From assembly GCF_055900595.2 (NCBI RefSeq), contig NZ_CM148325.1: DNA of 64,000 nucleotides, one strand, 5' to 3'. Position 1 is the stretch's first letter. Every line of letters starts with the position of its first letter. Of this stretch, positions 17,546 through 20,430 are shown in pieces. Made by a program: the position numbers and the translations under genes. The notes under the pieces were generated by a model. That model did no database searches and was not told the DNA's origin. It saw only the letters and a program-made list of their open reading frames with translations.

Positions 17546-17941
<396 letters not shown>

Positions 17942-18120
17942 TCAAAATGTGTGATGGAAATCTCATAATTTTGTCACTTTTTGTCAACGAATCTTTTTTG
18001 TGAGAAATCGCAGGAAGAGGTGTTTTTTTACTTGAGGAATATCTCAAAGCGAGCCATATTTGATGAGATCGATAGTGACTAAATCGCTTCAGTTTCACAA
18101 CTAACAGAATAAAAAAACGG

Positions 18121-18133
18121 CAGCTCAAGGCTG
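18121..18133. repeat. Left copy of the direct repeat flanking the IS4 element (putative target-site duplication)
   Basis: cagctcaaggctg here versus cagctcaagggctg at 19655-19668 (one G difference). Confidence 0.6.
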
Positions 18134-18146
18134 TAATGCCAGTCAG

Positions 18147-18858
18147 TTAAGCAACTGACTGGCTCTTTTTCGGGGCTGTGGGGTATTTCCAGGGCCTCTC
18201 CTTTACCACTCTCGGGAAGGCCCTTTCCCTTCTTGTCGGTAATTTCACTGGTTGTCCCATACTTGCAAGATCGCGCATCAGCTCCGGTATACGTCCCGGT
18301 GAAGCGCATGGCGTCCGTCATCGACGTCAGCAGATGGCTGGTCAGTTCCATCTGGCAGACCATTTTGACCTGCGGGTAGAGCGCCGGGTTCTCGGCATGT
18401 GTCTGGCGGGGGAAGGCTGCATCGTTCTCTGGTGTATCCGGTGTGCGCCAGAACACACCATCGATGGCCAGCAGGGTCAGGCCGCACCAGTGCGGATGCA
18501 GCGTGGCGTTATGCCAGAGCTGCGCTGTTTTCGTGAACACGCGTCGGACAGCCTCACTTCCCAGGCGCTGGCGGGCCTGAATAACGGCACTGGGGGCAAC
18601 GAAGGGGCGATTGCCTGGCAGCATGATGTCCAGGCGATTCACAATCTGGTGAAGAGGTTCTTTACGCTCAAGCGCCATGCCAACAATACACCAGACCATC
18701 ATTTCGAGGGGAAGACGGCGCTTGCGTAGCGTTACAGTACCTGATTCGGCAAGGCAACGAGAGATGAGTTCGGGGTCGAGGTAATCCCCCAGAAAAGTCA
18801 GTGGGTTACGCAGAGAATCGTAACGGGATACCAAATCAAGGGCCTGTCCAATGAGCAT
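18147..18858 (-). pseudogene. IS4 transposase (InsG-like) pseudogene: N-terminal ~175 aa intact, then internal deletions and frameshift
   Basis: MLIGQALDLVSRYDSLRNPL...HLLT then jumps to SMTDAMRF and loses frame; 259-aa ORF versus 442 aa for intact IS4 transposase (length recalled from memory). Confidence 0.75.
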
Positions 18859-18894
18859 AAATAAATATCCTCCGGCATAGCCGGAGGTTTTTCA

Positions 18895-19607
18895 AATGCG
18901 CCTGTAAGGCTCTGTTACCAGCCGCGCCCTAACAGGCGCATACGATCTGACATTTGCATTCAACTTCGTTACTTACGGCCCGTAAACGGGCTGCCCGGAT
19001 ATGGAATCGATAACTGCTCCCCCATTTTATCCTCTTCAAGCTGGTGCTTTATGTAGTCCTGTATCTTCGCCGTGTTCTTACCCACCGTATCGACATAGTA
19101 CCCTCGGCACCAGAACTCCCTGTTTCTGTATTTGAATTTCAAATCCCCAAACTGCTCGTAAAGCATCAGACTGCTTTTCCCTTTCAGATATCCCATAAAG
19201 CCGGATACGCTCATTTTGGGTGGGATTTCCACAAGCATATGGATATGATCTGCGCAGCACTCTGCTTCCAGAATCCGTACGCTTTTCCACTCACACAGCT
19301 TTCTCAAAATACTGCCTATCGCCCTACGCTTCTCTCCGTAAAACGCCAGTCTTCGGTATTTCGGCGCAAAAACTATGTGATATTTACAGTTCCAGCGGGT
19401 GTGCGCTAAGCTCTTTTCGTCCCCCATTGGGACCCCCTTTTGATTTCTTGTTTGACACTTGCAGTTGCCAGACCGCAAGGTGTTTTAACAAATCAAAAGG
19501 GGTTTTAATAACTGGCTCAAAGCTGAAAGCTTTCCGGAACCCCCAGCCTAGCTGGGGGTTTTCTGTGCACAAAAAAATCCGGAAACGAGTGAGCGTTTCC
19601 GGATTCT
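18895..19607 (-). mobile_element. IS200-like element (IS200/IS605 family), approx. 0.71 kb, boundaries +/- ~20 bp
   Basis: Contains Y1/HUH transposase tnpA, a terminator-like perfect palindrome near the left end (19577-19603), a 5'-UTR palindrome (19540-19558) and a 10-bp inverted repeat after the stop (18896-18905 / 18932-18941); extent inferred from expected IS4 leader length. Confidence 0.7.
18969..19427 (-). CDS. tnpA: IS200 transposase TnpA (Y1 HUH single-strand transposase)
   Basis: MGDEKSLAHTRWNCKYHIVFAPKYRR...HIHMLVEIPPK... 152 aa; the HxH (HIHML) motif is directly visible; ORF-track start at 19478 is an upstream extension. Confidence 0.9.
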   Translation of the reverse strand: MGDEKSLAHTRWNCKYHIVFAPKYRRLAFYGEKRRAIGSILRKLCEWKSVRILEAECCADHIHMLVEIPPKMSVSGFMGYLKGKSSLMLYEQFGDLKFKYRNREFWCRGYYVDTVGKNTAKIQDYIKHQLEEDKMGEQLSIPYPGSPFTGRK

Positions 19608-19654
19608 TACACAGCCACTGAATCGGTCAACTGATCCTTAACTGATCGGCATTA

Positions 19655-19668
19655 CAGCTCAAGGGCTG
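19655..19668. repeat. Right copy of the direct repeat flanking the IS4 element
   Basis: cagctcaagggctg; with the left copy reconstructs an uninterrupted aaaaaaacggcagctcaagggctgccgttttttt terminator hairpin. Confidence 0.6.
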
Positions 19669-19692: not shown

Positions 19693-20430
19693 TTATGTAT
19701 TGCTGCTGTTAGCAGCGATAATCTTCGCTACCTTTTCAGCTTGCGCATTCATCTGCATCTGACGGTATGCATTTTCCATCAGCGGCAGCGCATCACGCGT
19801 AGCCTGGGTATCCGGATAGTCGCGCAACATGCCTTCTACGCGGTTAACGACAGCAACCCATGCACCACGTTCTGTATAATACTCGGCAACGGAGTATTCA
19901 TATTTCGCCAGACGATCTTTCAGGAATACCAGACGTTTGGTGGCATCGGTGGTGTACTGACTGTTCGGATAGCCGCGCACCAGTTTGGAAAAGTCACTAA
20001 ACGCAGCTCGTGCATGTTGAGGATCGCGATCGCTACGGTCAACGCCAAAGAACCCTTGCAGCGCACTGTCATCCAGCGCCATATTGGTCAGGCCACGCAT
20101 GTACATGACATAATCGATATTCGGATGGGTCGGGTTAAGGCGAATAAAACGATCGATGGCAGCCTGTGCTAACGGCAAATCGGCGTTTTTATAGTAGGCG
20201 TAGATGAGATCCAGCTGCACCTGCTGCGAATACGGACCAAACGGATAGCGATTATCTAACGCTTCCAGTTGCGTTATTGCCTGTCTCCAGTTACCGTCCT
20301 GCAGCTTTTGTTGTGCAGTCGCGTAAATTTCATTTGGCGGATTATCAGGTACTTCTTCCTTTGACCCCGAGCAACCCGCCAAAAACAGGCTTAGTGTGGC
20401 GGCTGCCACCAGATATTTCATGCGCGTCAT
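19693..20430 (-). CDS. bamD: Outer membrane protein assembly factor BamD (YfiO) lipoprotein
   Basis: [22 protein letters not shown]... 245 aa, TPR-like. Confidence 0.95.

What the first reader, a model, noticed from the sequence alone, without database searches (positions are those of the whole stretch)
18147..18894. IS4 transposase inactivated by internal deletions; SD-sequestering hairpin retained
The ORF tracks IS4 transposase for ~175 residues to ...ELTSHLLT, then continues with SMTDAMRF (normally ~115 residues downstream, directly after another HLLT), which implies deletion between short direct repeats. After MRF the frame is lost and the ORF reads through the right inverted repeat. Upstream, cctccggcatagccggagg (18869-18887) contains the GGAGG Shine-Dalgarno 10 nt before the ATG, a likely translational control stem. 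The IS4 part is therefore probably non-autonomous.
Basis: partly seen in the sequence, partly recalled or inferred. Interest (0 to 1): 0.3.

Follow-up and report, generated by a model that had tools for sequence, protein, structure and literature searches.

The report
Decayed IS4 copy split by IS200
This is an ordinary dead copy of the E. coli insertion sequence IS4, crippled by two internal deletions and then split by a second mobile element (IS200), and the "control hairpin" in front of its gene belongs to IS200, not to IS4.

Summary
The ORF at 18079-18858 (- strand) follows the IS4 transposase InsG for 178 residues, jumps 112 residues, then loses frame and runs through the right inverted repeat.

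Alignment to an intact 1426-bp IS4 shows two clean deletions between short direct repeats:
- 336 bp, in frame, between perfect 14-bp repeats GCCATCTGCTGACG.
- 281 bp, frameshifting, between imperfect 12-bp repeats GCGCTTC(C/A)CCGG.

Together they remove the second catalytic Asp and the Y(2)R(3)E(6)K/Glu motif.

The IS4 copy spans 18134-19654. Its first 84 bp (left inverted repeat, promoter-like site, native hairpin plus T7) lie 712 bp upstream, because an IS200 (18859-19570) is inserted just before the InsG ATG. The stem CCTCCGGCTATGCCGGAGG (18869-18887) is the IS200 right-end hairpin. It occurs in IS200 copies at unrelated loci and is absent from intact IS4.

Related genomes give the order of events: IS4 inserted into the bamD terminator, then the 336-bp deletion, then the 281-bp deletion, then IS200. 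RefSeq already annotates this as a frameshifted IS4 pseudogene. The eight complete genomes sharing this IS200-bearing locus have no other IS4 copy. Low interest.

The parts
19655..19668 (-). Left copy of the IS4 target-site duplication (cagcccttgagctg; carries one extra C relative to the right copy). It is part of the bamD terminator hairpin.
   Evidence: Flank comparison. L006 and L008 have a perfect 13-bp duplication.
19571..19654 (-). IS4 nt 1-84: left inverted repeat (19637-19654), promoter-like TTGACC-16-AAGAAT (19603-19630), and the native IS4 leader hairpin plus T7 run (about 19573-19608).
   Evidence: BLAST to intact IS4; inverted-repeat search; promoter scan; fold at -20.1 kcal/mol, z = -5.9.
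18859..19570 (-). Nested IS200 (712 bp; the last T is ambiguous between IS200 and the IS4 T-run), inserted between the IS4 T7 run and the InsG ATG.
   Evidence: Boundaries from comparison with intact IS4 and with IS200 copies at other loci. Absent from L006-L008.
19437..19560 (-). IS200 left-end / tnpA 5'UTR region matching Rfam STnc490 (art200 locus). Includes the left-end terminator hairpin at about 19538-19560.
   Evidence: Rfam hit at 146 bits, E = 2.7e-31; fold; IS200 architecture as described in PMC4513863.
18969..19427 (-). IS200 tnpA (152 aa Y1/HUH transposase; HUH at residues 61-63, Tyr125), apparently intact.
   Evidence: Pfam PF01797; NCBIfam NF033573; RefSeq annotation of the identical locus; motif positions.
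18869..18887 (-). IS200 right-end subterminal hairpin CCTCCGGCTATGCCGGAGG. It is terminator-like on both strands.
   Evidence: Fold; terminator scan; identical hairpin at the same distance from the right end in IS200 copies next to hypT and in other contexts.
18147..18858 (-). insG pseudogene as RefSeq annotates it (native ATG to native stop), carrying both deletions. The mechanical ORF from the same ATG runs on to 18079 in the wrong frame.
18325..18338 (-). Junction of deletion 1: the single surviving copy of the 14-bp direct repeat GCCATCTGCTGACG. 336 bp (112 codons, IS4 nt 619-954 equivalent) are lost.
   Evidence: Base-by-base mapping; gap blocks in the multiple alignment.
18296..18307 (-). 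Junction of deletion 2: the surviving copy of GCGCTTC(C/A)CCGG (the A variant). 281 bp are lost, causing a frameshift.
18134..18151 (-). IS4 right inverted repeat (TAATGCCAGTCAGTTAAG read on the + strand). It forms an 11-bp hairpin with adjacent IS4 sequence (18138-18163).
18121..18133 (-). Right copy of the 13-bp target-site duplication (cagccttgagctg), followed by the 3' half of the bamD terminator stem and its T-run.

Best explanation
The locus is a fossil IS4 insertion in the bamD-raiA intergenic terminator that has decayed in steps and cannot move on its own.

1. Shown: an IS4 inserted into the loop of the bamD terminator hairpin and made a 13-bp target duplication.
2. Shown as to structure, inferred as to mechanism: a 336-bp in-frame deletion arose between perfect 14-bp direct repeats, most likely by replication slippage or RecA-independent recombination. 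It removed the region holding the second catalytic Asp.
3. Shown: a 281-bp deletion arose between imperfect 12-bp repeats. It removed the Y(2)R(3)E(6)K motif with the catalytic Glu and shifted the frame.
4. Shown: an IS200 then inserted immediately 3' of the IS4 leader hairpin and T-run, exactly in front of the InsG ATG. This separates the ORF from its own promoter-like site and leader.

The stem-loop holding GGAGG is the IS200 right-end hairpin. By analogy with the IS200/IS605 family it serves IS200 (TnpA recognition of the right end, possibly tnpA termination). That role is inferred. Its position before the insG' ATG is an accident of where IS200 landed.

Both IS4 inverted repeats and the duplication survive. 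The 1.5-kb IS4-delta::IS200 unit could therefore in principle be moved by InsG supplied in trans (inferred). The closest complete genomes hold no other IS4 copy.
For: - IS4 identity and segment map. About 98% identity; IS4 nt 1-84 / IS200 / 85-618 / 941-983 / 1253-1426.
- Inverted repeats and duplication.
- Protein: only PF13006 (N-terminal domain) remains. Intact InsG has PF13006 plus PF01609 at residues 126-352.
- Catalytic motifs: LMDKGY lies at IS4 nt 703-720 and YSHRWEIELGYREIK at nt 1003-1047, both inside the deletions.
- IS200 identity.
- IS200 right-end hairpin in unrelated contexts.
- Order of events: E2348/69-type genomes have only the 336-bp deletion at this same site. L006-L008 have both deletions and no IS200. 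Eight genomes match the window with IS200.
- Prevalence: the 336-bp junction occurs in 31 of 5426 complete genomes.
- No helper: one IS4-like place per genome in the matching genomes, and no other IS4 or IS200 in the window.
- RefSeq annotates the identical locus as 'IS4 family transposase, frameshifted'.
Against: - Nothing contradicts the structural account.
- It is not shown whether insG' is transcribed or translated at all.
- The deletion mechanism is not shown.
- Whether the 281-bp deletion here arose independently or by gene conversion is open. The same deletion exists in about 1000 genomes in a different IS4 remnant at adhE-tdk.
- The source genome beyond the 64-kb window was not available. 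Absence of an intact IS4 is inferred from the closest complete genomes, which match at 99.9-100% over the locus.
Confidence: 0.95

Rival explanations
1. One reading: the GGAGG-containing stem-loop is an IS4 translational control element (SD sequestration) that the defective IS4 has kept.
For: The stem is stable and contains GGAGG 10 nt before the ATG. Other transposase mRNAs use SD-sequestering stems, for example the IS200 5'UTR itself (PMC4513863).
Against: - Intact IS4 has a different leader: GAATCCGGAAACGCTCACTTGTTTCCGGATTTTTTT followed by ATG.
- The same doubly deleted IS4 without IS200 has that native leader.
- The stem is found at the right end of IS200 copies next to hypT and elsewhere.
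Confidence: 0.02
2. A different IS4-family member whose transposase is natively about 240-260 aa.
For: None beyond the existence of an open 259-codon frame.
Against: - About 98% nucleotide identity to IS4 in every retained block, with breakpoints exactly at short repeats present in intact IS4.
- The last 73 codons are out of frame relative to InsG and run beyond the inverted repeat.
- Intermediate forms with one deletion exist at the same site.
Confidence: 0.01
3. The truncated product (InsG N-terminal domain, residues 1-178, plus a junk tail) is expressed, using the IS200-supplied GGAGG, and acts as a trans-acting inhibitor of IS4 by occupying IS4 ends. This would be analogous to truncated transposase regulators in other elements.
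For: - The N-terminal IS4 domain is intact (PF13006).
- No stop occurs in the first 178 codons in any of the eight remnant copies examined.
- A strong SD lies at proper spacing.
Against: - The ORF is cut off from the IS4 promoter-like site by 712 bp of IS200, whose right-end hairpin is terminator-like in this orientation and would occlude the SD.
- Half of the few substitutions are non-synonymous: 4 of 8 in the window copy.
- The matching genomes hold no other IS4 to regulate.
- With 1 to 11 substitutions per copy, absence of stops is expected by chance.
Confidence: 0.03
4. The 281-bp deletion was not made at this locus. It was copied in by gene conversion from the adhE-tdk IS4 remnant (UTI89 type), or the deleted element was mobilised in trans.
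For: - The identical junction (A variant) is present at adhE-tdk in about 1000 genomes.
- E2348/69-type genomes hold two IS4-like places. In SC477 both were read: the adhE-tdk copy with the 281-bp deletion and the bamD-raiA copy with the 336-bp deletion.
- All remnants share variants at IS4 nt 68, and all but L010 share those at nt 1310-1311.
Against: - Trans-mobilisation is unlikely. The bamD-raiA copies share one insertion site, and the 336-bp deletion predates the 281-bp one there.
- Only two junction outcomes are possible, so identity of the junction is weak evidence.
- The shared variants also occur in the copy with the 336-bp deletion only, so they mark an old IS4 lineage, not the 281-bp deletion.
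Confidence: 0.25

Closest known systems
IS4 (E. coli K-12 insG; 1426 bp; IS4 family, IS4 subgroup)
   Same: - 18-bp terminal inverted repeats.
- 13-bp target duplication.
- About 98% nucleotide identity in all retained blocks.
- Same start codon and N-terminal domain.
   Different: - Lacks 336 + 281 bp, so there is no second Asp, no YREK/Glu motif, and the C-terminus is frameshifted.
- It is interrupted by IS200 between the leader and the ATG.
IS200 (Salmonella/E. coli; IS200/IS605 family, tnpA-only group)
   Same: The nested element has:
- about 711-bp length;
- a left-end terminator hairpin;
- the STnc490/art200 region;
- a 152-aa HUH/Tyr125 TnpA;
- a right-end hairpin (architecture per PMC4513863).
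   Different: Nothing notable. It is 95-96% identical to the other E. coli IS200 copies fetched. Whether this copy is active was not tested.
IS4 remnant between adhE and tdk in UTI89/CFT073-type strains (RefSeq 'IS4 family transposase, frameshifted')
   Same: - Same 281-bp deletion junction.
- Same old IS4 sequence variants.
- Also inserted in the loop of a terminator hairpin with a 12-bp duplication.
   Different: - Different locus.
- Retains the 336-bp segment.
- No IS200.
ISZ / insZ pseudogene of E. coli K-12 (adhE-tdk)
   Same: An IS4-like, non-transposing remnant in a terminator hairpin. PMC5009759 lists ISZ as IS4-like with zero transpositions.
   Different: Only the first 35 nt resemble IS4. 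It is a different family member, not the element studied here.

Membership tests
IS4 (element IS4, IS4 family) | Terminal 18-bp inverted repeats TAATGCC(GA/AG)TCAGTTAAG at both ends | tested here: met
   19637-19654 (0 mismatches) and 18134-18151 (2 mismatches, the same as the native right repeat). Zero of 100 shuffles gave two matches.
IS4 (element IS4, IS4 family) | Target-site duplication of about one helical turn (11-13 bp) | tested here: met
   13-bp cagccttgagctg on both sides. The left copy has one extra C in the window and is perfect in L006 and L008.
IS4 (element IS4, IS4 family) | Nucleotide homology to the reference element along its length | tested here: met
   96.7-98.9% identity over IS4 nt 1-84, 85-618, 941-983 and 1253-1426.
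IS4 (element IS4, IS4 family) | Single ORF encoding a DDE transposase with D..D..E and Y(2)R(3)E(6)K | tested here: not met
   Only PF13006 is detected in the window ORF. Intact InsG has PF01609 at residues 126-352. The second-Asp region and the YREK motif map inside the deletions. It is therefore a defective (pseudogene) copy of IS4, not a functional member.
IS200 (IS200/IS605 family), for the nested element and the hairpin | Y1/HUH transposase TnpA | tested here: met
   PF01797, E = 1e-36. NF033573 at 144 bits against a cutoff of 55. HUH at 61-63 and Tyr125.
IS200 (IS200/IS605 family), for the nested element and the hairpin | About 707-bp element with a left-end terminator hairpin and a structured tnpA 5'UTR / art200 | tested here: met
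   711-712 bp. Rfam STnc490 at 146 bits against a cutoff of 56. Left-end hairpin fold. Published architecture in PMC4513863.
IS200 (IS200/IS605 family), for the nested element and the hairpin | The 18869-18887 stem belongs to the IS200 right end (present in independent IS200 copies, absent from IS4) | tested here: met
   The identical stem ends 9 nt before the right end in IS200 copies in L002 (hypT flank), L003 and L004. It is absent from intact IS4.
IS200 (IS200/IS605 family), for the nested element and the hairpin | TnpA binds the subterminal right-end hairpin on single-stranded DNA | not testable with these tools
   Inferred from the IS200/IS605 family mechanism. No binding data were obtained here.
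SD-sequestering translational control stem of a transposase mRNA | The stem is part of the transposase's own leader and is conserved with the gene it controls | tested here: not met
   insG copies, intact or deleted, that lack IS200 have a different leader. The stem came in with IS200.

The most novel reading that the evidence does not exclude
IS4 and IS200 may be reciprocal landing pads for each other, because each seeks terminator-like hairpins.

- IS200 has entered the T-run after the IS4 leader hairpin at least three separate times: in the window, in L003, and in L004 at a 2-nt offset. The IS200 variants involved are only 96% identical.
- IS4 is found in the loop of the IS200 left-end hairpin at two loci, L002 and L004, with the same 11-bp duplication.

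If general, this mutual nesting would be a built-in route by which these two elements silence each other. IS200 uncouples insG from its promoter-like site, and IS4 splits the IS200 left end.
Probability: 0.5. Interest if true: 0.3.

Novelty: already known. Interest (0 to 1): 0.1.

Why it matters
It matters little beyond correct annotation. The value is in getting the anatomy right:
- The IS4 copy is 1521 bp (18134-19654), not the 748 bp flagged.
- It contains a nested IS200.
- A hairpin that looks like a translational control for the transposase gene belongs to the neighbouring element.

The locus is a tidy, datable example of stepwise IS decay. Intermediates with one deletion, two deletions, and two deletions plus IS200 all survive in different E. 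coli lineages. It could serve as a lineage marker: the 336-bp junction is in 31 of 5426 complete genomes, and the IS200-bearing form is in 8.

Tried and rejected
- I first read the shared 281-bp deletion at two loci (bamD-raiA and adhE-tdk), plus shared SNPs, as evidence that a deleted IS4 had been mobilised in trans. I rejected this after finding E2348/69-type genomes with only the 336-bp deletion at the bamD-raiA site. The 281-bp deletion is therefore secondary there, and the shared SNPs mark an old IS4 lineage rather than that deletion.
- The first E. coli hits showing 'IS4 + IS200' side by side (H9-H25) turned out to be a different arrangement: IS4 inserted into the IS200 left-end hairpin (L002). 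They are not relatives of this locus.
- I tried to confirm from the literature my recollection of an IS4 target consensus, AAA-N20-TTT. The string was not found in the library. PMC2266710 says only that some IS4-subgroup elements show marked specificity in the target arms. The consensus is therefore not used as evidence.
- A weak Rfam hit to Yersinia Ysr202 over the hairpin (29.9 bits against a cutoff of 315) was dismissed as sub-threshold. It probably reflects IS200/IS1541-like sequence in that model.
- A check for purifying selection on the N-terminal 178 codons was uninformative because there are too few substitutions.

Full report
**Where the locus is.** The window region is the E. coli bamD-raiA intergenic region. 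bamD lies at 19693-20430 (-), raiA at 17546-17887 (-), and pheL/pheA lie downstream. Everything described below is on the - strand.

**Checking the observation.**
- The ORF at 18079-18858 (259 aa) exists.
- BLASTP against an intact InsG from strain UK_Dog_Liverpool (L002) gives 174/179 identities over residues 1-179. A second stretch aligns residues 175-188 to InsG 287-300, HLLTSMTDAMRF.
The jump is 112 residues.
- The 19-nt stem-loop at 18869-18887 is also real and stable: 8-bp stem, -19.6 kcal/mol in context, z = -4.2, and no shuffle folds as well. GGAGG ends 10 nt before the ATG at 18858.

**True anatomy.** I aligned the window to the 1426-bp intact IS4 taken from L002. It resolves into four IS4 blocks:
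- IS4 nt 1-84 at 19654-19571.
- IS4 nt 85-618 at 18858-18325.
- IS4 nt 941-983 at 18338-18296.
- IS4 nt 1253-1426 at 18307-18134.

Identity is 96.7-98.9%. Adjacent blocks overlap on the window because each breakpoint lies in a short direct repeat.

- Deletion 1 is 336 bp (112 codons, in frame). It lies between perfect 14-bp repeats GCCATCTGCTGACG at IS4 nt 605-618 and 941-954.
- Deletion 2 is 281 bp (not a multiple of three). It lies between GCGCTTC(C/A)CCGG at IS4 nt 972-983 and 1253-1264. The window keeps the A variant, so the crossover was in GCGCTTC.

The IS4 inverted repeats sit at 19637-19654 and 18134-18151. They are flanked by a 13-bp target duplication, cagccttgagctg, which is the loop and 3' stem of the bamD terminator hairpin AAAAAAACGGCAGC-CTTGA-GCTGCCGTTTTTTT. 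The IS4 copy therefore spans 18134-19654 (1521 bp), not 18147-18894.

**The nested IS200 and the hairpin.**
- A 712-bp IS200 lies at 19570-18859, between IS4 nt 84 and 85, that is, between the T7 run of the IS4 leader and the InsG ATG.
- It encodes a 152-aa Y1/HUH transposase: PF01797, NF033573, HUH at 61-63 and Tyr125.
- Its left end matches Rfam STnc490, the art200 region, at 146 bits.
- It has the published IS200 layout of a left-end terminator hairpin and a structured 5'UTR (PMC4513863).
- The same stem, at the same distance from the end, is present in IS200 copies flanked by hypT (L002) and in L003 and L004.
- Intact IS4 has instead GAATCCGGAAACGCTCACTTGTTTCCGGATTTTTTT directly before the ATG. 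In the window this native hairpin (-20.1 kcal/mol, z = -5.9), together with a promoter-like TTGACC-16-AAGAAT, now sits on the far side of IS200.
- The hairpin is therefore IS200's, not a retained IS4 control element.

**Loss of function.**
- Pfam finds only the N-terminal IS4 domain in the window ORF.
- Intact InsG has in addition PF01609 (DDE_Tnp_1) at residues 126-352.
- The first Asp region (LLAIDG, IS4 nt 469-486) is retained.
- LMDKGY (nt 703-720) lies in deletion 1.
- YSHRWEIELGYREIK (nt 1003-1047) lies in deletion 2. It fits the IS4-family signature Y(2)R(3)E(6)K described in PMC2266710.
- The assignment of these residues as catalytic rests on that family signature, not on an experiment here.

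**History from other genomes.**
- RefSeq annotates the identical locus in strain Z0117EC0005 as 'IS4 family transposase, frameshifted', next to an IS200/IS605 tnpA.
- Eight complete genomes share the window structure. Seven are collinear at 100% identity, and E200086 has the IS200 left side rearranged.
- The deletion-1 junction is present in 31 of 5426 complete genomes.
- Eighteen of these match the junction query at 100% identity. The three without IS200 that I read in full (L006-L008) carry both deletions and the native IS4 leader before the ATG.
- Thirteen match at 98%. The two that I read (E2348/69 and SC477) carry deletion 1 only, plus a 1-bp deletion, at the same insertion site with the same duplication.
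- The most parsimonious order is: IS4 insertion, then deletion 1, then deletion 2, then IS200 insertion.

**The second deletion elsewhere.** About 1000 genomes (UTI89 and CFT073 type) carry an IS4 remnant with the same deletion-2 junction at a different place. It sits in the adhE terminator hairpin between adhE and tdk, with its own 12-bp duplication. I first took this as evidence of trans-mobilisation of a deleted element. The E2348/69 intermediates argue instead for either recurrence of the same repeat-mediated deletion or gene conversion between copies. The data here cannot separate those two.

**Helpers.** A query made only of IS4 sequence plus the raiA-side flank finds one IS4-like place per genome in each of the eight matching genomes, and in five of the six further collinear carriers listed. 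RMDEC465, with 31 places, is the exception. The 64-kb window has no other IS4 or IS200 sequence. The remnant keeps both ends, so it could in principle be moved by InsG in trans. In its closest sequenced relatives there is no source of InsG.

**Mechanism.**
- Shown: the structure, the breakpoints at short repeats, the order of events, and the origin of the hairpin.
- Inferred: the deletions arose by slippage or illegitimate recombination between the repeats.
- Inferred: the IS200 hairpin functions for IS200, in right-end recognition by TnpA as in the IS200/IS605 family, and possibly in termination, since it scores as terminator-like on both strands.
- Inferred: insG' is silent, being cut off from its promoter-like site by IS200.

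**Comparison with the known.** This is IS4 itself, in a defective form, carrying an ordinary IS200. Neither the elements, nor repeat-mediated internal deletion, nor IS-in-IS nesting is new. A recent preprint reports that terminator-like sequences are strongly over-represented just upstream of IS200/IS605 elements (10.1101/2025.07.22.666184). That agrees with the IS200 flanks seen here.

**Verdict.** The sequence observation is largely right. The inactivation and non-autonomy reading is right. The hairpin reading and the element boundaries are wrong. The feature is ordinary and already annotated as a pseudogene.

Noticed in passing
window 19571-19580 / 18859; L002 2850-2915; L003 1560-1590; L004 1440-1600; L005 2450-2510: Every IS200 left end examined, in four distinct sequence contexts, abuts a hairpin followed by a T-run, like an intrinsic terminator. 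The contexts are the IS4 leader hairpin (three loci), an unnamed hairpin in L002, a hairpin downstream of glcA, and the hairpin downstream of rpoS. IS200 entered the IS4 T-run independently at least three times: the window copy is 96% identical to the L003 and L004 copies, and the L004 junction is offset by 2 nt.
   Followed up: partly
L002 2900-2930 and 4350-4365; L004 1478-1505 and 3640-3655: IS4 is inserted in the loop of the IS200 left-end terminator hairpin, with the same 11-bp duplication cagctaggctg at two different chromosomal loci. In L004 the inserted IS4 itself carries a nested IS200. Together with the bamD and adhE terminator insertions, this suggests IS4 prefers hairpin loops flanked by A- and T-runs.
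   Followed up: partly
L003 1502-3638: An intact IS4 (442-aa InsG ORF open) with an IS200 nested at the same leader position interrupts fiu, flanked by a 12-bp duplication (cccacgccgggg). Either the 2.1-kb IS4::IS200 composite transposed as a unit, or IS200 entered after IS4 inserted.
   Followed up: no
L009/L010 1561-2705 (UTI89, SC477) and L011 (K-12 1294426-1295405): The adhE terminator hairpin holds an IS4 remnant with the 281-bp deletion in about 1000 genomes. In K-12 it holds ISZ/insZ, which shares only its first 35 nt with IS4. Two different IS4-like elements therefore occupy the same terminator.
   Followed up: partly
L005 2400-2520 (strain E200086): In this strain the IS200 of the locus is joined on its left to the rpoS terminator instead of to the IS4 left end. 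This implies a chromosomal rearrangement through IS200 copies.
   Followed up: no
window 19655-19668 vs 18121-18133: The left copy of the target duplication has an extra C (cagcccttgagctg against cagccttgagctg) in the window and in L007, but not in L006, L008 or L012. This is a post-insertion 1-nt indel that subdivides the carriers.
   Followed up: no
L013 644-1382 (isolate SC477): bamD, an essential gene, is annotated as frameshifted in this assembly. This is probably a sequencing or assembly error.
   Followed up: no
window 18138-18163 (+): The IS4 right inverted repeat forms a perfect 11-bp hairpin with adjacent internal sequence (GCCAGTCAGTT-AAGC-AACTGACTGGC), followed by TCTTTTT on the + strand. 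It is terminator-like for transcription entering IS4 from the raiA side.
   Followed up: no
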